Source: an uncultured Methanosarcinales archaeon (GTDB lineage: Archaea > Nanobdellota > Nanobdellia > Woesearchaeales > JACPBV01). From it: a DNA stretch of 64,000 bases. A model generated the notes under the pieces. That model was given only the letters and a program-made list of their open reading frames with translations. It was not told the DNA's origin and ran no database searches. The number at the start of each line of letters is the position of its first letter. Within the stretch, counting starts at the first letter, position 1. Shown here piece by piece: positions 50,712 through 56,912 of this stretch. The stretch lies in NCBI GenBank assembly GCA_964609455.1, contig CAZSRD010000001.1:70920-134919 (forward strand), given 5' to 3'. The position numbers were made by a program, and so were the translations under genes.

Positions 50712-51830
50712 ATGGATATAGATTACAAGAAAACAAAGGTTTTCTCTAATCCGGTAAAGCCCTCACAAGGTTCGGACTTTACGGATTACCAAAAAAGAGA
50801 AGCCAAAGCAGTTAGCGCTATAAAGAAAGCTATACCTTCTTCTTTAAAGAAAAATATGGTTTATGGTGAAGGGATGTTTGCTGAGCTGTATTCTAATGAT
50901 AAGGTATTTCCTAATCATTTAATGGCTTGTGCTATTGATGGCGTTGGAACTAAATTATTGTTAGCTGAGGAGATGGAAAAGTATGATACTATTGGCATTG
51001 ATTTAGTTGCTATGTCTGCGAATGATTTGGCTACTCTTGGGAAGGTTTCTCCGTTTTTGTTTATTGATTATTTTGCTGTTCAAAATGAATTTGAGGAGAT
51101 GGGTTTAACTGGAGACTTGATGAAAGGGATTGTTAAGGGATTAGAGATGTGCGATGTTGGAGACATCTTAAGAAGCTCTATACATGTTAATATTGGAAAA
51201 GGTGAAACTGCCTCTGTTGATGAGATGGTAAAAGGCTTAAAGCCAGGAATGGGATTTGATATCGCTGGCGGTTTAATTGGTTTTATGAAAAAAGAAGATC
51301 TTAATACTTCTGTAAAAGTTGGAGATAAGATAATTGCTTTGAAAAGCTCTGGAGCACATTCAAATGGCTATACTGACTTAAGGTTGAAGTTTTTAAAAAA
51401 TAGAAAAATAGAGGATAAGTTTGATGGCTCTACAATTGGAGAGATTTTATTAGAGCCAACGAGGATATATTCTAAAACAGTTGCTGCTATTGCTGATAAG
51501 GTTAAATTAGTAGGAATTAACAATACTGGATATGGGCTAAAGAACCTGAATAGGGTAAAAGGGGTGCAGTTTGAGATTAATGCTCCTATTAAGCCGCAGC
51601 CGATATTTGAGCTTGTGCAGAAAGAAACTAAGTTTTCAGATGAAGATATGTACAGGAAGTTTAATATGGGCCAGGGTTTCTTTTTGATAGTTGATTCAAA
51701 AGATGCTGACAATGCTGTTTCTATTGCCTCTAAGTTTAAGGATGAAGCTAAAGTAATTGGAGAAGTTAAGAAAGGAAGTGGAACTGTTCTTTTAAAAGAT
51801 AATAAAAAGATATTGTTTGAAGGGTATTAA
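50712..51830 (+). CDS. purM: Phosphoribosylformylglycinamidine cyclo-ligase (AIR synthetase)
   Basis: AIDGVGTKLLLAEEM and the PurM N/C domain pattern. 372 aa. Confidence 0.85.
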   Translation: MDIDYKKTKVFSNPVKPSQGSDFTDYQKREAKAVSAIKKAIPSSLKKNMVYGEGMFAELYSNDKVFPNHLMACAIDGVGTKLLLAEEMEKYDTIGIDLVAMSANDLATLGKVSPFLFIDYFAVQNEFEEMGLTGDLMKGIVKGLEMCDVGDILRSSIHVNIGKGETASVDEMVKGLKPGMGFDIAGGLIGFMKKEDLNTSVKVGDKIIALKSSGAHSNGYTDLRLKFLKNRKIEDKFDGSTIGEILLEPTRIYSKTVAAIADKVKLVGINNTGYGLKNLNRVKGVQFEINAPIKPQPIFELVQKETKFSDEDMYRKFNMGQGFFLIVDSKDADNAVSIASKFKDEAKVIGEVKKGSGTVLLKDNKKILFEGY

Positions 51831-52840
51831 CCCCCACCAATTACTGTTCTAGCTATATACTTAACAGAAGATGCCATTGCCTTCATGTTTTCCACTATTT
51901 TTGCTGTAGCTGCGCATGCTGGCCTAAAATTACAAACCCCCTTCCCATCTCCGTTTGTAAATTTTAAATCTTTATGGTAATGTTTTTCAAAGAAGCTGTC
52001 ACATGCAACTATTATTTCCTTGTTTCTCTTTTCTACTTCAAGCGCTATTTTTTCGTCATTGGTGTGATAAGATCTCATAACATCAAAGTAGCTTTGTTTG
52101 ATACTGTTAAAAAGAGTTTTCATCTCTTCACTCCACTTTCCACTTACTTTTGTATCACCAATATACCTGCATATTCTTTTAGTATTGTCAGCTATTCTTT
52201 CTATCATTGTTGTAACTGTATGGTCTGAGTGCAGCCTTAATGAGTTGGTTTGCAGTGAATTTGCTATTCTGACGTCTTTCAAGGCCCCCCTAATAATCCT
52301 TGAGGTAAGAAAATGCAGCCTGTTAACATCTTCATCTCTGTGGATTATACTTTCGGCATCTTCTTTTCCGCAAAAACAATTAAAAGTATCCTCGAGCATT
52401 GCTCTTGCAATATTGTCCATCCTTCTTATTAATGTTTTAATTGGAATCTCTTTTATGTCGATTAGATCTTTTGCAACAATCCTTGTTGAACTTTGGTTTA
52501 TTATCTCTAACCCAGATAAATTTTGAAGCATTGATTTTATTTCTGGAGCTTTGTTTTTAAGGTCTTTAGAAATAACCTCTATCATGTTATAATTATTAAG
52601 GTATGCTGATACGATTTCTGTTCTTAATATGTCTGGGCTTTTGTTTTCTGCCTCAATAACTATTGATTTTGGCTCTTCTTTCAGTGTTTCTGTGCTATTT
52701 GTTTTTAAGAATAAGCCGTCTTTTGCTTCTTCTATAGAAATCAAATCTCCTTTTTGTAATTTGTTCTTCTCTACCCATGGTTTTGGCAAGGACAAAACAT
52801 AAGAGTTTTTACCAAATCTGATTAATTTCCTCATATTCAT
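51827..52840 (-). CDS. AbrB/SpoVT-type swapped-hairpin domain fused to PhoU-like repeats (archaeal phosphate-uptake-regulator-like)
   Basis: N-terminus MRKLIRFGKNSYVLSLPKPWVEKNKLQKGDLI is an AbrB-like fold. The start is taken at MNMRKL. The track ORF's 24 extra codons were rejected. Confidence 0.65.
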   Translation of the reverse strand: MNMRKLIRFGKNSYVLSLPKPWVEKNKLQKGDLISIEEAKDGLFLKTNSTETLKEEPKSIVIEAENKSPDILRTEIVSAYLNNYNMIEVISKDLKNKAPEIKSMLQNLSGLEIINQSSTRIVAKDLIDIKEIPIKTLIRRMDNIARAMLEDTFNCFCGKEDAESIIHRDEDVNRLHFLTSRIIRGALKDVRIANSLQTNSLRLHSDHTVTTMIERIADNTKRICRYIGDTKVSGKWSEEMKTLFNSIKQSYFDVMRSYHTNDEKIALEVEKRNKEIIVACDSFFEKHYHKDLKFTNGDGKGVCNFRPACAATAKIVENMKAMASSVKYIARTVIGGG

Positions 52841-53026
52841 TTTTACCCCCCCCAAGTTTATTTTATAAAATATACAAATTATATATAAAAGTATATACCA
52901 TAAATTTTGCATATATACTATATATAATATATGGTAAGGTTATATATAAATGTTTCGCCAATATTAAGGTTAGCTGATAAGAAAGGCGGATTAGTTTTTA
53001 TCTGATTGAATGTGGAGGTGAAAAAA

Positions 53027-53155
53027 ATGGAAGAAAAAACAACCCATGACTACATAAGGGAACATCTATTGAAGGATATTGTTTTTGTGCCTTTTGATAT
53101 AGAGGATAAAATTCGTTTTGACTTGTTTACCAAAATAGAAGAGGTATTAGGGTGA
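53027..53155 (+). CDS. Small protein (42 aa), no Cys. First of a tandem run of tiny ORFs.
   Basis: GGAGGTG sits 7 nt upstream of the ATG. Below the ORF-track cutoff. Translated by hand. Confidence 0.35.
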   Translation: MEEKTTHDYIREHLLKDIVFVPFDIEDKIRFDLFTKIEEVLG

Positions 53156-53161
53156 TATAAA

Positions 53162-53308
53162 ATGGCAGAAATAATGCAAAACAGAATGGTTTTTGCAAAC
53201 GAACCAAATTGGGTATACTGCTACAATTGCAAAACAGAAATGAGCTTTAATGGACATGGTTATGAGTGCCCGGTGTGTGGCTCTATGTATTTAGACAGAG
53301 GTGATTAA
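53162..53308 (+). CDS. Small zinc-ribbon protein (48 aa, CxxC...CxxC)
   Basis: Hand translation MAEIMQNRMVFANEPNWVYCYNCKTEMSFNGHGYECPVCGSMYLDRGD. Confidence 0.45.
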   Translation: MAEIMQNRMVFANEPNWVYCYNCKTEMSFNGHGYECPVCGSMYLDRGD

Positions 53309-53437
53309 ATGAAAAGAAGAATATGTGTAAGTTGCGGCTCTAAAATTATGAAGAGCGCATTTCATGATCCCTATTTATGCAGGGAATGTGAGAAAGAGGT
53401 GAAAGAAGAGCAAAGGTTTGCTTTTCTAGATGGTTAA
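53309..53437 (+). CDS. Small zinc-ribbon protein (42 aa, CxxC...CxxC)
   Basis: Hand translation MKRRICVSCGSKIMKSAFHDPYLCRECEKEVKEEQRFAFLDG. AGAGGTG precedes the ATG, which abuts the previous stop. Confidence 0.45.
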   Translation: MKRRICVSCGSKIMKSAFHDPYLCRECEKEVKEEQRFAFLDG

Positions 53438-53641
53438 ATGCAGCGGGAAAATCGGAAAAAGCCATAAATTCAGCGGAAAGCCATAAACACTTCGTGTTTA
53501 ATGTCACTGAATTTAATGTTACTGATTTTCCCTGGTCTCTTTTTGCTTACAAAAAGAGGAGGTGGTAAAATTGGATGAAGGAGAAGATCATTGGTTTTTT
53601 GTAGAATGTGATGATGATAAAATGATGGAATTTTCAGAAAA

Positions 53642-53791
53642 ATGAAGTCCAAGCTATGTAGATATTGTGGTATGGAGTTTACCGATATTGATTTTCCTGC
53701 TCAATTTGATAGAATGATTACTTGTGGTACTTCTGAATGCATGAAATTAAGGAGATGGGAAAGGTTGGGGATAAAAGAAGAAGGTTTTTAG
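53642..53791 (+). CDS. Small zinc-ribbon protein (49 aa, CxxC...CxxxxC). Its N-terminus is paralogous to the 53309 ORF.
   Basis: Hand translation MKSKLCRYCGMEFTDIDFPAQFDRMITCGTSECMKLRRWERLGIKEEGF. A 24-aa acidic TTG-start ORF with an AGGAGGTGG RBS precedes it at 53571-53645. Confidence 0.4.
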   Translation: MKSKLCRYCGMEFTDIDFPAQFDRMITCGTSECMKLRRWERLGIKEEGF

Positions 53792-54723
53792 TCTGTGTCT
53801 CTTGTTGTATAGAATAAAGCCCATACTGGGAAATGGTCAGATACTTTTTCTGCTGCTTTTTGGGTTAGCCCGTATCTGCTTTTGAAATCTAAAACCTGCC
53901 ATTTGCCTGCATAATCCTCGCTGGTGAATGCTTTTCTAAAAACTATTCTGTCGTAAGTATAGTTTGTTGCTTTTACAGTTGTATCAGCCCAGTCTGGTAT
54001 AACCCATTGGTACCTTGTATCCCTAAATCCTGTTGTTATTTTCTCTGAGAAATATTTGCCATCTGCATTAAAGTCCCCTAATACTATAACATCTTTATCA
54101 TCTTTTACCATGTCATCTGCATATTTTTCCACTTCTTCTAATGCCATTACCTCCCTAGTTGCATATTCTGGTTTTGTGTGTATGTTAACTAAGGTAAAAT
54201 CAAACTTTCCTGAACTAAACGCAGCTATAAATGGTGTTCTTGTGAATTTCTTTGATGAATCGTTGTATATTGCTGAGATTCTTCTGAAGTTTACTGTTCT
54301 TGTGTTGTATATAAAAGCATAACTTTCAGCAGCAGCACCTTCTCCAACACGGGGGCTTATAACATAATCATACTTGTCTCCTGCTGCTGCGTTTATCCTT
54401 TCCATAAAGTAAGGGACTGTTTTCCCCCCTATATCTTTTATCTCTTGTATTGCAACAACATCAAAGTTCCTGACAATTTTTTCAAGAACCTGCATTACCT
54501 CTTCTTTTTCCCTCTTTGCTTTTCCGAATACCTGGATATTGAAGGAAGCTATTTTGATGGTTGGTTCAGAAAGCTGTTGCTCTAAAGAAGCGGGTTGTGT
54601 TGTTTGGGTTTGTTCTATTCTTGAAGGGGATTTCGGTTCGTATCTATATTTAGGAATTTCTCTATCTCCCCTACAATAAAAGATAGCTGCTATCATTCCT
54701 AAAGTAATGAGTAACTTTCTCAT
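53788..54723 (-). CDS. Secreted/lipoprotein endonuclease-exonuclease-phosphatase (DNase I-like) family nuclease
   Basis: N-terminal signal with a lipobox-like FYC. The EEP motifs are IASFNIQ, VVAIQE, GDFNAD and SDHFPVW. 311 aa. Confidence 0.75.
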   Translation of the reverse strand: MRKLLITLGMIAAIFYCRGDREIPKYRYEPKSPSRIEQTQTTQPASLEQQLSEPTIKIASFNIQVFGKAKREKEEVMQVLEKIVRNFDVVAIQEIKDIGGKTVPYFMERINAAAGDKYDYVISPRVGEGAAAESYAFIYNTRTVNFRRISAIYNDSSKKFTRTPFIAAFSSGKFDFTLVNIHTKPEYATREVMALEEVEKYADDMVKDDKDVIVLGDFNADGKYFSEKITTGFRDTRYQWVIPDWADTTVKATNYTYDRIVFRKAFTSEDYAGKWQVLDFKSRYGLTQKAAEKVSDHFPVWALFYTTRDTD

Positions 54724-54770: not shown

Positions 54771-54801
54771 AATGCCCCCAACGGGATTTGAACCCATGTC
54801 C
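54771..54801 (-). repeat. Exact 31-nt copy of the tRNA-Glu 3' end (variable loop, T-arm, acceptor 3' strand, discriminator and 2 nt). An att-like remnant.
   Basis: Identical to the sequence beginning at 56679 in the intact tRNA-Glu locus. A further shared flank CTAGAAGAATGC sits at 54728-54739 (matching 56672-56683). Confidence 0.75.
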
Positions 54802-55707: not shown

Positions 55708-56550
55708 TCATTTCAATCTTTTCCTATAGGTATTAGCAATCATCTTTTCATCTTTTTTAACTCTTCTTTCAAGTTTCTTGATATCTTCTTCAGGAGGCAG
55801 TTCTTCTGGTTTTATTCCTCTCTTGGATAATAAGCCCCTTACTTCCGCATTATTCCTTACATGTTCGCCAGTTATTCTATCTTCACCTTCAAGATTATCT
55901 TTCTTTACATTAAAATTAGTGATTTCTGTAGCTAGATTCTTTGCTGTGATAGTGATTGTTGGAAGAAAATCTGCTAAAGGCCTGTTCTTATGGATTTTAA
56001 GCTTACTTTTCATCATGGCAGTAGTATAACCTCCAAATAATGCTTTATCCCCTTTGCTTCTTATTCTTGCAAATCCTGCTTCATCAACTCCCTTTTCATA
56101 GATTAGCTTAGAAAGCTCTGTCTCAGATGCCACTAATTTCTGCCTTGCACTTAATCTTTCAATTAGTGCAATCCTTTCTTCAATCAATTCTTGTTTTCTT
56201 GTTTGTACTGCAAAATAACTTTGAGCAAAAGCTATCTGCTCTTTTCTAGGATCTCCGTTTTGAGCAATTAAATAACATGCATATCTTGTAAGCATGATAT
56301 CCTCAATTTCCCTCTCTGCTTCAGAACCAATCTTGACCTTTTTCCTGATGTCAGGAAAATGGTCGCTTACCTCCTGTCCCGAGTTCCTGCAGGATTCTTT
56401 TGCTTTGGCAATTACATTTAGAAAATTCTCCCATTTATTATACCCTAATAACTGCTGCAAATCTCTTGCAAACCAAAACTCTATGCCATCAGCTTCATTA
56501 GCATAATCCTCAAAGGATTTTCTAAGTTTTATTATAATCTCTTTTTTCAT
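55708..56550 (-). CDS. DinD / RhuM-family (DNA-damage-inducible protein D-like) protein, a common mobile-element cargo
   Basis: N-terminus IIKLRKSFEDYANEADGIEFWFARDLQQLLGYNKWENFLNVIAKAKESCRNSG matches the conserved DinD/RhuM N-terminal block. 280 aa. Confidence 0.6.
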   Translation of the reverse strand: MKKEIIIKLRKSFEDYANEADGIEFWFARDLQQLLGYNKWENFLNVIAKAKESCRNSGQEVSDHFPDIRKKVKIGSEAEREIEDIMLTRYACYLIAQNGDPRKEQIAFAQSYFAVQTRKQELIEERIALIERLSARQKLVASETELSKLIYEKGVDEAGFARIRSKGDKALFGGYTTAMMKSKLKIHKNRPLADFLPTITITAKNLATEITNFNVKKDNLEGEDRITGEHVRNNAEVRGLLSKRGIKPEELPPEEDIKKLERRVKKDEKMIANTYRKRLK

Positions 56551-56680
56551 CTTCCATGTAAGTAATGAATACTTGTATTTATAATTTTTGAAAATCCACT
56601 CCTTACGTCGTTCTATTGGTTTCTGGTAAGTGGTTAGTAGAACTACGCACTACCCACTACTAACTAAAAAACTAGAAGAA

Positions 56681-56755
56681 TGCCCCCAACGGGATTTGAA
56701 CCCATGTCCCAGCCTCGAAAAGGCTGAATGATTGACCGGACTACACCATGGGGGC
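56681..56755 (-). tRNA. tRNA-Glu (anticodon TTC)
   Basis: Reverse complement reads GCCCCCA-...-CAGCC-TTTTCGA-GGCTG-GGAC-ATGGG-TTCAAAT-CCCGT-TGGGGGC-A. Confidence 0.85.
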
Positions 56756-56806: not shown

Positions 56807-56912
56807 TGGGCTCGCAGGGATTTGAACCCCAGACCGCCGGCTCACTTAGAGCCGTTTGCCTAGAACGTGGCCATATAAGACCGGCGCTCTAACCAGGCTG
56901 AGCTACGAGCCC
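56807..56912 (-). tRNA. Intron-containing tRNA with apparent anticodon TAT (tRNA-Ile2-like). 31-nt intron at the canonical 37/38 position (plus coordinates 56843-56873).
   Basis: Acceptor GGGCTCG/CGAGCCC and an Ile/Met-type D-arm AGCTCAGCCTGGTTAGAGC. Anticodon stem CCGGT/GCCGG with loop CTTATA|intron|A. Intron-end TAAG pairs with loop CTTA (a BHB-like arrangement). 106 nt precursor. Confidence 0.6.

What the first reader, a model, noticed from the sequence alone, without database searches (positions are those of the whole stretch)
53027..53791. Tandem run of tiny ORFs (one 42-aa non-Cys protein, three 42-49-aa zinc ribbons, a 24-aa acidic peptide), unannotated
Five closely spaced small ORFs on the + strand, most with good Shine-Dalgarno-like sequences. 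Three carry CxxC...CxxC zinc-ribbon spacing, and two share an MK+xxCxxCG N-terminus (paralogs). All fall below the ORF-track cutoff.

The cluster sits behind an AT-rich, TATATA-dense divergent promoter region. Neighbours are an AbrB-PhoU regulator and a secreted DNase I-like nuclease. Clusters of small zinc ribbons like this are typically uncharacterised and could be regulators or components of an undescribed system.
Basis: seen in the sequence. Interest (0 to 1): 0.55.

Follow-up and report, generated by a model that had tools for sequence, protein, structure and literature searches.

The report
Conserved archaeal operon of tiny zinc proteins
Five tiny genes in a DPANN (Woesearchaeota-type) archaeon are real: four belong to undescribed small-protein families (three zinc-binding, one acidic peptide) kept beside the same AbrB-PhoU regulator gene in related genomes, but their function is not known.

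Summary
Five small ORFs lie on the + strand at 53027-53791, four of them with Shine-Dalgarno-like sequences. Three have four cysteines each.

Four of the five are real genes. ORF2-ORF5 have relatives in related Woesearchaeota/Nanoarchaeia contigs, in the same order and on the same side of an AbrB-PhoU regulator gene. Their divergence pattern is that of coding sequence: pN/pS 0.31-0.40, and codon position 3 is far less conserved than positions 1 and 2. ORF1 has only one weak relative.

They form distinct families:
- ORF2: a zinc ribbon.
- ORF3: CxxC...CxxC plus a helix.
- ORF4: an acidic peptide ending ...DKMxEFxEK.
- ORF5: a confident treble-clef model, with FCS/YacG-like folds as the top but non-significant matches.

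ORF4's stop codon overlaps ORF5's start (ATGA). This two-gene cassette also sits beside a paralogous AbrB-type regulator and beside a wHTH-receiver regulator in a related genome.

None reaches the threshold of any Pfam, NCBIfam, PHROGs or PADLOC model, and none is a known ribosomal or RNA polymerase subunit. ORF3 and ORF5 are not paralogues.

A conserved bidirectional TATA-box control region drives the operon. The best reading is a lineage-specific small-protein module that works with AbrB-PhoU-type regulators. The mechanism is inferred, not shown.

The parts
51827..52840 (-). AbrB(SpoVT/MazE-fold)-PhoU regulator gene, 337 aa from ATG 52840. It is the one conserved neighbour of the small-ORF operon and is transcribed divergently from it.
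   Evidence: Pfam PhoU 5e-12 and MazE_antitoxin/AbrB 3e-6. There are 167 homologues at E<=1e-20, named Woesearchaeota/Nanoarchaeia where a name exists. Start confirmed by the N-terminal consensus MxMRKLISFG.
52841..53026 (.). Bidirectional control region. It holds a TATA box facing the regulator (52877-52889), three ATATAT boxes (52910-52934), and a TATA box for the small-ORF operon (GGTTATATATAAA, 52938-52950) followed by TGTTTCGCC. A 5' leader follows, with the SD GGAGGTG at 53014-53020.
   Evidence: An 11-locus alignment shows 77% mean column identity with invariant ATATAT/TATATATAAA blocks, against about 0.45 identity at codon position 3 of the adjacent genes. Both motifs have a single exact copy in the window. 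Calling them TATA boxes is inference from archaeal promoter knowledge.
53027..53155 (+). ORF1, 42 aa, acidic (pI 4.7), no Cys. It sits in the first operon position, which family A (zinc ribbon) or family G (acidic) occupies in relatives. It is probably a gene, but this is not verified by conservation.
   Evidence: Strong SD plus ATG. Called as a gene in public assemblies. The only relative is weak: L044, 53% over 19 aa, phmmer E 0.05. No match to families A-E or G.
53162..53308 (+). ORF2, 48 aa, family B. A Cys4 zinc ribbon (C-x2-C-x12-C-x2-C), paralogous to family A.
   Evidence: Relatives in 5 loci at 51-63% identity in the same operon position. The four Cys are invariant in all 19 A/B sequences. 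pN/pS 0.35. Only sub-threshold generic zinc-ribbon/HypA hits.
53309..53437 (+). ORF3, 42 aa, family C. Consensus MxRxRCxxCGxxIxKSAxxDPYLCRECE...ERYAYLD: a Cys4 knuckle plus helix with an acidic-aromatic C-terminal motif. Its start codon directly follows ORF2's stop.
   Evidence: HMM hits in 17 loci plus the window. The four Cys are invariant in 17/17. A profile search of 1.84 billion representatives gave 81 hits, about 65 of them stand-alone proteins of 33-99 aa. pN/pS 0.35. AF2 pLDDT 74, helix 25-39.
53438..53570 (+). 133-nt spacer specific to this genome. It holds a long imperfect hairpin (about 53445-53532), then a T-run, then a second small hairpin whose 3' arm overlaps ORF4's SD. It could be a terminator or attenuator and/or hold an internal promoter (TTTAATG-type boxes at 53497-53520).
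   Evidence: RNA fold -39 kcal/mol, z = -2.7, 3 of 200 shuffles as good. Not repeated in the window or in the loci. No Rfam match. Relatives have 7-62 nt here instead. The functional reading is inference.
53571..53645 (+). ORF4, 24 aa from TTG, family D. A very acidic peptide (charge -8) with the family's C-terminal signature DKMMEFSEK-stop. Its stop overlaps ORF5's start.
   Evidence: D-family HMM E 2e-8 for the window copy. 21 loci by HMM and 24 by the C-terminal motif, which occurs in only 26 of 23,224 small frames and almost only at this position. pN/pS 0.40. The TTG start is supported by the same-type 24-aa homologue MEDEETYWFFIECDDDKMKEFLEK in L125.
53642..53791 (+). ORF5, 49 aa, family E. 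Consensus CRYCGxEFxDIDFPAQFxRMxTCGxxECMxxRRWER: a treble-clef zinc finger (beta-hairpin knuckle plus helix), translationally coupled to ORF4.
   Evidence: 9 loci plus 29 clusters at 90% identity, all 39-75 aa and stand-alone. 20 invariant positions, including C6, C9 and C33 (C28 is conserved in >=90%). pN/pS 0.31. AF2 pLDDT 90.5. Best folds are FCS fingers 2w0t/2l8e and YacG, TM 0.4-0.5, not significant. ATGA overlap with D in 9 of 11 distinct contexts.

Best explanation
This is a lineage-specific (Woesearchaeota/Nanoarchaeia, DPANN) operon of very small proteins. It is transcribed from a conserved, strong TATA-box promoter that shares a bidirectional control region with an AbrB-PhoU-type transcription regulator gene.

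Shown:
- ORF2-ORF5 are real protein-coding genes under purifying selection.
- They belong to four undescribed families: B zinc ribbon, C zinc knuckle-helix, D acidic peptide, E treble-clef zinc finger.
- Their order, (A or G)-(B)-C-D-(E), and their position divergent from the regulator gene are conserved.
- D and E form a cassette with overlapping stop/start codons. This cassette also occurs beside a paralogous AbrB-type regulator and beside a wHTH-receiver regulator.

Inferred mechanism:
- The small proteins are produced together with, and under the control of, the neighbouring regulator.
- They act as its accessory or modulating partners.
- The Cys4 proteins each bind one zinc ion and serve as small nucleic-acid- or protein-binding modules.
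- The strongly acidic peptide D (like ORF1, and like family G in other genomes) either pairs one-to-one with E or masks the DNA-binding AbrB domain in the way AbbA does for Bacillus AbrB.
- Together this would form a feedback loop on the shared promoter.
For: Real genes:
- tblastn and HMM hits for ORF2-5 in related loci, in the same order and strand.
- Pooled pN/pS 0.31-0.40, with identity 0.65-0.77 at codon positions 1-2 against 0.43-0.47 at position 3.
- N-termini conserved, which confirms the start codons.

Zinc binding:
- Four Cys invariant in A/B (19/19) and in C (17/17). In E, C6, C9 and C33 are invariant and C28 is >=90% conserved.
- AF2 gives a beta-hairpin knuckle plus helix for ORF5 (pLDDT 90.5) and a knuckle plus helix for ORF3 (pLDDT 74).
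- Top fold matches are zinc fingers.

Link to the regulator:
- 52 of 87 regulator loci with at least 700 nt upstream carry at least one family member, divergent, within 1.5 kb. Only 4 members lie elsewhere in the roughly 10-kb loci.
- The D C-terminal motif is almost exclusive to that position (24 of 26 occurrences among 23,224 frames).
- The intergenic control region is more conserved than synonymous sites (against 46).
- In the L007 genome the D-E cassette recurs beside a 23%-identical AbrB-type paralogue (L128; syntenic in L129 from another genome) and beside a wHTH-REC regulator (L125).

Physical partnership within the operon:
- ATGA coupling of D and E.
- A C-D read-through fusion in three independent samples.
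- A B-C in-frame fusion in L007.

Precedents:
- Brz, a small zinc-finger protein that regulates its neighbouring gene (PMC2253796).
- AbbA, which competes with DNA for AbrB (10.1101/2024.08.12.607668).
- SpoVT/AbrB-PhoU proteins, listed as chromosome-associated regulators in Thermococcus (PMC7325993).
Against: - No experiment and no homology to any characterised protein supports a specific function. All database hits are below threshold.
- Gene neighbourhood alone cannot tell 'partners of the regulator' from 'targets of the regulator' or from mere sharing of a strong promoter.
- 35 of 87 regulator loci show none of the families, although my HMMs may miss divergent ones.
- ORF5 is nearly neutral (pI 7.6), so a simple acid-base pairing with ORF4 is not obvious.
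- No sequence similarity to AbbA was found or expected; the AbbA comparison is an analogy.
- The fold matches are not statistically significant (E 0.6-5).
- ORF1 lacks conservation support.
Confidence: 0.45

Rival explanations
1. The zinc proteins (ORF2, ORF3, ORF5) are lineage-specific structural components of a large machine, such as accessory ribosomal or RNA polymerase subunits. They would be expressed at a high level from a strong promoter. Their position beside the AbrB-PhoU gene would then be a conserved accident of genome layout, not a functional link.
For: - Archaeal ribosome structures keep revealing small zinc-ribbon proteins such as aS21 (PMC12605026).
- The A/B profile's weak PDB hits include aS21 (9o17_AZ, E 1e-4), aS34 and HVO_2753-like ribosome-bound proteins.
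- ORF3's best fold and profile matches include archaeal uS14 (9znf_BP, TM 0.55, 36% identity over 33 columns; profile E 0.05) and eL43.
- The promoter has a near-perfect TATA box.
- One E paralogue lies next to a ribosomal protein/RNAP operon (L125).
Against: - All scores are far below family cut-offs: S14 14 bits against 54, PRK14890/aS21 17 against 61.
- ORF2 is acidic, and ORF3 and ORF5 are only weakly basic to neutral (pI 4.8, 8.5, 7.6), unlike ribosomal proteins.
- Presence is patchy. B occurs in 6 loci and E only in the closest clade, with two to three E copies in one genome. A core subunit would not vary like this.
- The families are tied to regulator genes in three different contexts.
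Confidence: 0.2
2. ORF4-ORF5 (D-E) is a miniature toxin-antitoxin-like or otherwise selfish two-gene cassette: an acidic neutraliser upstream and a zinc-finger effector downstream. It would tend to settle beside regulator genes.
For: - The 4-nt ATGA overlap and small-acidic-then-larger gene order resemble type II toxin-antitoxin organisation.
- There are three cassette copies in one genome, in different contexts.
- Truncated D-like fragments lie beside intact copies in L007, L045 and L128, which suggests turnover.
Against: - No hit to any PADLOC, Pfam or NCBIfam toxin or antitoxin model.
- D occurs without E in many loci (L010, L016, L017, L020, L027, L031 and others).
- The positions are syntenic across genomes (the PPDK-GatB locus in two genomes) rather than mobile.
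- The window contains no mobile-element genes adjacent to the cassette.
Confidence: 0.1
3. The Cys4 proteins are a zinc (or other metal) buffering or trafficking set. They would be controlled by the PhoU-domain regulator acting as a metal sensor, with ORF5 as a TRASH-like metal-handling domain.
For: - Three to four Cys4 proteins are co-expressed.
- ORF5's Cys spacing (C-x2-C-x18-C-x4-C) and its treble-clef model resemble the TRASH/FCS/YHS class. The top fold match is an FCS finger.
- The regulator has a conserved Cys and His set (C280 invariant; H287, C303, C309 >=90%).
- PhoU domains are known to bind metal ions (established knowledge, not tested here).
Against: - No hit to the TRASH, YHS, zf-FCS or L24e models at E<=1.
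- The spacing differs from the TRASH C-x3-C pair.
- The many invariant non-Cys residues of E (IDFPAQF, RRWER) point to a specific macromolecular interface rather than simple metal storage.
- No metal transporter genes are conserved nearby.
Confidence: 0.1
4. The ORFs are chance open frames in an AT-rich intergenic or regulatory region and are not translated.
For: - Many spurious 20-60 aa ORFs exist throughout the window.
- ORF1 has almost no conservation support.
Against: For ORF2-5:
- Conserved frames, start codons and invariant Cys across loci whose regulator is only 30-70% identical.
- A coding-type substitution pattern.
- Hundreds of database members between them.

Confidence: 0.03

Closest known systems
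Haloarchaeal one-domain zinc-finger micro-proteins with C(P)XCG motifs (for example HVO_2753, HVO_0758) and Brz of Halobacterium salinarum
   Same: They are stand-alone archaeal proteins under 70 aa, built around two CxxC(G) knuckles that bind one zinc ion. Some act in regulation. Brz is encoded next to the gene it regulates (PMC6562870, PMC11241148, PMC10716476, PMC2253796).
   Different: There is no detectable sequence relationship: NCBIfam HVO_2753, HVO_2142 and HVO_2901 models score 11-16 bits against cut-offs of 80-90. Here three unrelated zinc families plus acidic peptides form one conserved operon tied to an AbrB-PhoU regulator. The lineage is DPANN, not haloarchaea.
FCS / TRASH / YacG-type treble-clef zinc fingers (L3MBTL2 and PHC1 FCS domains, YacG gyrase inhibitor, ribosomal eL24)
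   Same: ORF5's confident model has a CxxC beta-hairpin knuckle, and its second Cys pair sits at the start of a helix. The top-ranked PDB folds are the 2w0t and 2l8e FCS fingers and YacG 4tma. The Cys spacing is of the same type.
   Different: The fold matches are not significant (E 0.6-4, TM 0.4-0.5). No Pfam hit to zf-FCS, TRASH, YHS, YacG or L24e at E<=1. The second pair is C-x4-C rather than C-x3-C. The IDFPAQF and RRWER motifs are unique to this family.
Zinc-type ribosomal protein uS14 and archaeal aS21 (DUF1610/PRK14890)
   Same: Similar size and Cys4 knuckles. ORF3's 'C..CG...(13)...LCR.C.(K/R)E' pattern resembles uS14. These are the best weak profile and fold hits.
   Different: Scores are far below the cut-offs: 14-17 bits against 54-61. 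ORF3 has an acidic C-terminal ERYAYLD motif and lacks the basic N- and C-terminal extensions of uS14. aS21 has two zinc sites. The phyletic pattern is patchy.
AbbA, the anti-repressor of Bacillus AbrB
   Same: A small, acidic protein that could antagonise an AbrB-fold DNA-binding domain (10.1101/2024.08.12.607668). ORF4/D, ORF1 and family G are small acidic proteins encoded beside an AbrB-domain regulator.
   Different: This is purely an analogy: no sequence similarity and no interaction data. AbbA is about 65 aa and bacterial, whereas D is 24-40 aa and archaeal.
HypA zinc-ribbon module
   Same: ORF2 and family A give their best Pfam hit to the C-terminal zinc-ribbon part of HypA (profile positions 58-97, E 2-3e-4), with the same C-x2-C-x12-C-x2-C spacing.
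   Different: The hits fall below the gathering score (21-22 against 28.9 bits). The N-terminal nickel-binding domain of HypA is absent, so this is a stand-alone ribbon.

Membership tests
Ribosomal protein uS14 (zinc type) | Sequence reaches the family model's cut-off (NCBIfam NF004424, 54 bits) | tested here: not met
   ORF3 scores 14.4 bits, E 0.025. The C-family profile against PDB uS14 chains gives E 0.05-5. Foldseek TM 0.55, E 0.78.
Archaeal aS21 / DUF1610 (PRK14890 Zn-ribbon RNA-binding protein) | Model cut-off of 61 bits; two zinc sites (four CxxC) in about 60 aa | tested here: not met
   ORF2 scores 17.0 bits and ORF3 16.7 bits. Each has only two CxxC pairs.
RNA polymerase subunits Rpo12/RpoP and Rpo10/RpoN | Match to the Pfam or PDB sequence family | tested here: not met
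   No Pfam hit at E<=1 for any of the five ORFs. RPB12 chains give only E 0.5-0.9 for the C profile.
Haloferax HVO_2753 / HVO_2142 / HVO_2901 zinc-finger micro-protein families | NCBIfam equivalog cut-offs of 80-90 bits | tested here: not met
   11-16 bits.
FCS / TRASH / YHS / YacG / eL24 treble-clef domains | Sequence match to the Pfam models | tested here: not met
   Pfam returned no family for ORF5 at E<=1. One of two further E members returned nothing and the other only zf-C2HC_2 at E 0.43. None of the FCS, TRASH, YHS, YacG or L24e models was hit.
FCS / TRASH / YHS / YacG / eL24 treble-clef domains | Treble-clef fold: CxxC knuckle on a beta-hairpin, with the second ligand pair at the N-terminus of a helix | tested here: inconclusive
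   The AF2 model (pLDDT 90.5) has strands 3-5 and 12-14 and helix 31-42, with C28 and C33 at the helix start. FCS fingers rank first, but with E 0.59 and TM 0.47-0.51.
Cys4 zinc-binding proteins (zinc ribbon / zinc finger, general) | Four conserved Cys ligands | tested here: met
   Invariant in A/B (19/19) and in C (17/17). In E, C6, C9 and C33 are invariant and C28 is >=90% conserved.
Cys4 zinc-binding proteins (zinc ribbon / zinc finger, general) | Actual zinc binding | not testable with these tools
   Needs metal analysis of purified protein. Several predicted haloarchaeal C(P)XCG proteins do not bind zinc (PMC11241148).
Type II toxin-antitoxin or anti-phage defence systems | Match to a known toxin, antitoxin or defence model | tested here: not met
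   PADLOC gave only one chance-level hit (DruE, E 0.008, 12 bits, ORF2) and nothing for ORF1, ORF3-5, the regulator or the nuclease. No Pfam or NCBIfam toxin families.
HypA nickel metallochaperone | Full-length match above cut-off, including the N-terminal Ni-binding domain | tested here: not met
   Only profile positions 58-97 of 112 match, at 21-22 bits against 28.9. TIGR00100 gives 16-18 bits against 88.
Mobile element / viral cargo | Relatives on viral contigs or in phage protein families | tested here: not met
   No relatives of ORF2 or ORF5 in IMG/VR. PHROGs gives only weak generic zinc-ribbon hits. The cluster lies outside the tRNA-Glu att repeats.

The most novel reading that the evidence does not exclude
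AbrB-PhoU-type regulators of DPANN archaea work as multi-subunit switches. A cassette of micro-proteins encoded across a shared bidirectional promoter would bind the regulator, or its operator, directly and set its activity. The cassette comprises an acidic peptide D (and G or ORF1) acting as a DNA-mimicking or tail-docking anti-repressor, the zinc finger E as its coupled partner, and the zinc proteins B and C as further adaptors. If so, this would be a previously undescribed regulatory system built almost entirely from proteins under 60 aa.
Probability: 0.25. Interest if true: 0.65.

Novelty: new variant of a known kind. Interest (0 to 1): 0.45.

Why it matters
DPANN archaea have tiny genomes, so genes they keep are likely to matter. 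Yet much of their proteome is 'hypothetical', and small ORFs are routinely missed.

This work defines at least five undescribed small-protein families: A/B, C, D and E, plus G in relatives. It gives their invariant residues, a conserved promoter, a coupled two-gene cassette, and a reproducible genomic link to AbrB-PhoU-type regulators, whose own role in archaea is poorly understood.

That turns an anonymous run of ORFs into a testable module with three direct questions. Does D bind E? Does either bind the regulator? Does the regulator bind the ATATAT boxes?

The practical value is modest until a function is shown. The result does give family seeds for annotation, and candidates for studies of archaeal micro-proteins.

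Tried and rejected
1. Concatenating all five peptides into one query for the search for homologous proteins found nothing. This was a failure of the trick, not evidence of absence: a later profile search found 29 E-family clusters.

2. A single-sequence scan of GTDB genomes with the regulator found nothing. An alignment of homologues was needed.

3. Viral origin is rejected. ORF2 and ORF5 have no relatives on IMG/VR contigs, and PHROGs gives only generic hits.

4. Strain variants were uninformative. The other contigs carrying these proteins are identical across the cluster.

5. ORF3/ORF5 paralogy is rejected (hhalign 5.5%), as is an A/B-to-C relationship (6.4%).

6. ORF1 as a diverged member of G, D or another family is rejected (HMM E 0.08-0.7).

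7. The NDUFS6 hit of the E profile (E 0.003; 19 residues, CKYCENKFVRDDFPAFF) is treated as a chance local match. In NDUFS6 that knuckle is the last ligand pair of a CHCC domain with a different architecture.

8. C2H2 zinc-finger hits (PRDM9, Aart) for the C and A/B profiles are repeats of the linker-knuckle motif 'KPYxCxECG'. The long multi-stretch hits in the representative search are the same thing.

9. Unrelated proteins listed in some 90% clusters (a tape-measure protein, FliN, MtaB) are clustering artefacts.

10. The spacer hairpin at 53438-53570 is neither a repeated element nor a known RNA: it has no other copy and no Rfam match.

11. Phosphate-uptake (pst) genes are not conserved around the regulator, so a classical Pho regulon context is not supported.

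12. The afdb50 fold library was unavailable.
Full report
**What is in the sequence.**

The window is 35.8% G+C. It comes from a DPANN archaeon of the Woesearchaeota/Nanoarchaeia type. Homologues of its AbrB-PhoU protein carry those names where a name exists, and Rfam finds an intron-containing tRNA.

Five ORFs lie head to tail on the + strand between 53027 and 53791:
- ORF1, 53027-53155, 42 aa, acidic, no Cys.
- ORF2, 53162-53308, 48 aa, C-x2-C-x12-C-x2-C.
- ORF3, 53309-53437, 42 aa, C-x2-C-x14-C-x2-C. Its ATG directly follows ORF2's stop.
- A 133-nt spacer.
- ORF4, 53571-53645, 24 aa from TTG, net charge -8.
- ORF5, 53642-53791, 49 aa, C-x2-C-x18-C-x4-C.

ORF1 to ORF4 are preceded by GGAGGTG-type Shine-Dalgarno sequences. 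ORF5 has none, and its ATG overlaps ORF4's TGA. Only 8 of 1060 small frames in the window have such a Cys pattern, and three of them sit here.

**Are they genes?**

The other public contigs carrying these exact proteins are identical across the cluster, so they say nothing. I therefore collected loci through the neighbouring regulator. An alignment of its homologues (A1) retrieved 34 loci from GTDB species genomes and 80 from JGI metagenomes.

tblastn and iterated HMM searches on six-frame translations of these loci found relatives of ORF2, ORF3, ORF4 and ORF5. They lie immediately upstream of the regulator gene on the opposite strand, in the same order as in the window.

Pooled over pairs, pN/pS is 0.35 (ORF2 family), 0.35 (ORF3), 0.40 (ORF4) and 0.31 (ORF5). 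Synonymous sites are saturated. Identity is 0.65-0.77 at codon positions 1 and 2 against 0.43-0.47 at position 3. N-termini are conserved, which fixes the start codons. For ORF4 a 24-aa homologue of the same subtype supports the TTG start. ORF2 to ORF5 are therefore protein-coding.

ORF1 has only one weak relative (L044) and matches none of the other families. It has a strong ribosome-binding site and is called by gene finders, but conservation does not verify it.

**The families.**

- **B (ORF2).** A zinc ribbon found in six loci including the window. It is a paralogue of a family A (MIETMPGGEPIILEKVPxLLYCGGCMxEM...ACPxCG), which takes the first operon position in close relatives but is absent here. 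All four Cys are invariant in 19 A/B sequences.
- **C (ORF3).** Consensus MxRxRCxxCGxxIxKSAxxDPYLCRECE...ERYAYLD, with four invariant Cys. A profile search of 1.84 billion representative proteins gave 81 hits. About 65 are stand-alone proteins of 33-99 aa. The long hits are C2H2 or Cys-rich repeats matching only 'PYxCxxC'.
- **D (ORF4).** An acidic peptide of 24-40 aa, consensus ...EDxYEDFFxRYxDLxDKMxEFxEK-stop. The HMM finds it in 21 loci. A regular expression for its C-terminus finds 26 of 23,224 small frames, and 24 of them are at this genomic position.
- **E (ORF5).** Consensus CRYCGxEFxDIDFPAQFxRMxTCGxxECMxxRRWER, with 20 invariant positions. It comprises 29 clusters at 90% identity, all 39-75 aa and all 'hypothetical protein'.
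- **G (not in the window).** In more distant relatives an acidic family (IYSxxxRxxLLEDDEISxEEEAFMxGY) takes the first position. It occurs in 44 loci.

ORF3 and ORF5 share only the N-terminal MK..C..CG knuckle. hhalign gives 5.5% probability, so the proposed paralogy is not supported. A/B and C are also unrelated at profile level.

**Comparison with known families.**

No peptide or family member reaches the cut-off of any Pfam or NCBIfam model. PHROGs and PADLOC (which carry no curated cut-offs) return only weak generic hits. The hits overall are generic zinc ribbons at 11-22 bits. In particular the following all fall far short:
- uS14: 14 bits against 54.
- aS21/PRK14890: 17 against 61.
- The Haloferax HVO_2753-type families: 11-16 against 80-90.
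- HypA: 21-22 against 28.9, and only its zinc-ribbon part.

Profile searches of PDB sequences give nothing convincing.

AlphaFold2 with a 12-sequence alignment models ORF5 with pLDDT 90.5 as a beta-hairpin knuckle plus a helix (residues 31-42) that carries the second ligand pair. That is a treble clef. The top PDB folds are the FCS zinc fingers of L3MBTL2 and PHC1, and YacG also appears, but with E 0.6-4 and TM 0.4-0.5.

ORF3 models less well (pLDDT 74) as a knuckle plus helix. Its weak best matches are archaeal uS14, eL43, the p62 ZZ domain, CsfB and TraR.

So these proteins belong to the known kind 'archaeal Cys4 zinc-finger micro-proteins' (PMC6562870, PMC11241148) but to no described family.

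**The conserved context.**

Of 87 regulator loci with at least 700 nt of upstream sequence, 52 carry at least one member of families A-E or G, divergent, within 1.5 kb. The order is colinear: (A or G)-(B)-C-D-(E). Only four members lie anywhere else in the roughly 10-kb loci.

The other neighbours are not conserved partners. A PurM-like gene follows the regulator in 24 loci. The DNase I-like gene does not recur in the conserved neighbour set, and no pst genes are present.

The intergenic region is itself conserved, at 77% column identity over 11 loci. It reads: TATA box facing the regulator (window 52877-52889), CATATAC, about 12 nt, CATATATACTATATATAATATATGG (52910-52934), then AAGGTTATATATAAATnTTTC (52936-52958) facing the small ORFs. 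Both motifs have a single exact copy in the window. Reading these as archaeal TATA boxes and operator-like repeats is inference.

**Links among the small proteins.**

- D's stop overlaps E's start (ATGA) in 9 of 11 distinct contexts.
- A C-D read-through fusion (P0202) is assembled independently in three samples, preceded by a G gene.
- B and C are fused in frame in L007.
- The genome that holds L007 (GCA_028279655.1) has two more D-E cassettes.
  - One is divergent from a 23%-identical AbrB-type paralogue lying between PPDK and GatB genes. This arrangement is syntenic in a second genome (L128, L129).
  - The other is divergent from a wHTH-receiver response regulator, and its D is of exactly the window's ORF4 subtype (L125).

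The cassette is thus repeatedly found across a promoter from a transcription regulator.

**Most likely function.**

The best-supported reading is a lineage-specific micro-protein module that works with AbrB-PhoU-type regulators. It would be co-transcribed from the shared control region and act back on the regulator or on its targets.

By analogy, the acidic peptides (D; also G and perhaps ORF1) could mask the AbrB DNA-binding domain as AbbA does in Bacillus (10.1101/2024.08.12.607668), or pair one-to-one with E. The zinc fingers could be small nucleic-acid- or protein-binding adaptors, as Brz is for bop (PMC2253796). These steps are inferred from neighbourhood, coupling and composition only.

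The rivals are:
- Accessory ribosomal or RNA polymerase subunits. These proteins have weak similarity to uS14 and aS21, and the promoter is strong. Against this, they are not basic and their distribution is patchy.
- A toxin-antitoxin-like D-E cassette. It is multi-copy and the genes overlap. Against this, no model matches, its positions are syntenic, and D often occurs without E.
- A metal-buffering set under a metal-sensing PhoU regulator. ORF5 is TRASH-like and the regulator has conserved Cys and His. Against this, no model matches and E has many specific non-ligand residues.

**The spacer.**

The 133-nt gap between ORF3 and ORF4 folds into a long hairpin (z = -2.7), followed by a T-run and a small hairpin that overlaps ORF4's ribosome-binding site. 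It is absent from relatives, where the gap is 7-62 nt. It is not repeated and matches no Rfam family. It may split the operon into two transcription units in this genome. That is unexplained.

**Verdict.**

The cluster is a conserved, undescribed small-protein operon of DPANN archaea linked to an AbrB-PhoU regulator. Its biochemical function remains unknown.

Noticed in passing
window 54771-54801 and 56679-56709 (segment 54771-56709): An exact 31-nt direct repeat (AATGCCCCCAACGGGATTTGAACCCATGTCC) equals the 3' part of tRNA-Glu (56681-56755, - strand). The repeats bracket about 1.9 kb holding a Bro-N protein (55708-56550, phrog_8036, 3e-88) and a 239-aa protein with a C-terminal Cys cluster and faint transposase/integrase similarity. 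This looks like a small integrated element or remnant at tRNA-Glu. The public contig k141_647643 ends at about window 54912, just inside it.
   Followed up: partly
window 56807-56912 (-): A 106-nt tRNA match found by Rfam (54 bits) but not by ARAGORN. It is presumably an intron-containing archaeal tRNA, within a cluster with tRNA-Glu, tRNA-Gly and tRNA-Val.
   Followed up: no
window 53438-53570: A genome-specific 133-nt spacer between ORF3 and ORF4. It has an imperfect hairpin of about 85 nt (z -2.7), a T-run, and a second hairpin that sequesters part of ORF4's Shine-Dalgarno sequence. It has no repeats and no Rfam match, and it is absent from relatives.
   Followed up: partly
window 51827-52840 (-), residues 280-309 of the regulator: The AbrB-PhoU regulators of this clade share an invariant C280 and nearly invariant H287, C303 and C309 near the C-terminus (...ACDxFFxKHxHKD...GVCxFRxACGAT...). 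This could be a metal or redox site.
   Followed up: no
L128 3608-5180; L129 1709-3198; L125 3630-5249: Related genomes carry extra copies of the D-E cassette. One is divergent from a distant AbrB-type paralogue between PPDK and GatB genes, syntenic in two genomes, with a further small family (…VEEDExIYGEYxxMVDKR…). Another is divergent from a wHTH-receiver response regulator next to a GAF histidine kinase.
   Followed up: partly
44 loci, e.g. L016 3865-4038, L017 4644-4817, L121 2-112: A widespread acidic small-protein family (G: IYSxxxRxxLLEDDEISxEEEAFMxGY, 45-95 aa) takes the first position of the divergent operon in more distant Woesearchaeota and Pacearchaeota. It has no Pfam or NCBIfam match and is not present in the window.
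   Followed up: partly
L121 141-395 (P0202); L007 4411-4692 (reverse strand): Natural in-frame fusions of neighbouring small genes. C-D fused by loss of C's stop codon is seen in three independent samples. B-C appear as one 93-aa ORF in L007.
   Followed up: yes
L007 4310-4405 (reverse strand); L045 about 2094-2144; L128 4814-4882: Short truncated D-like ORFs (…EEAYWFFIxCD…, 16-31 aa) lie beside intact D genes. This suggests duplication and decay within the cassette. The window's ORF4 is the intact form of this subtype.
   Followed up: partly
protein clusters of P0135, P0139, P0163 (tool output, not the window): The 90%-identity clusters holding some of these micro-proteins also list unrelated long proteins: a 1280-aa tape-measure-like protein, high-GC FliN/FliY and MtaB. 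These are evidently clustering artefacts that could mislead automated annotation.
   Followed up: yes
window 53788-54723 (-): The Exo_endo_phos (DNase I-like) protein starts with a hydrophobic segment ending in Cys (MRKLLITLGMIAAIFYC), which is compatible with a secreted or lipid-anchored nuclease. Its stop overlaps ORF5's stop region by 4 nt (convergent). It is not a conserved neighbour of the cluster.
   Followed up: no
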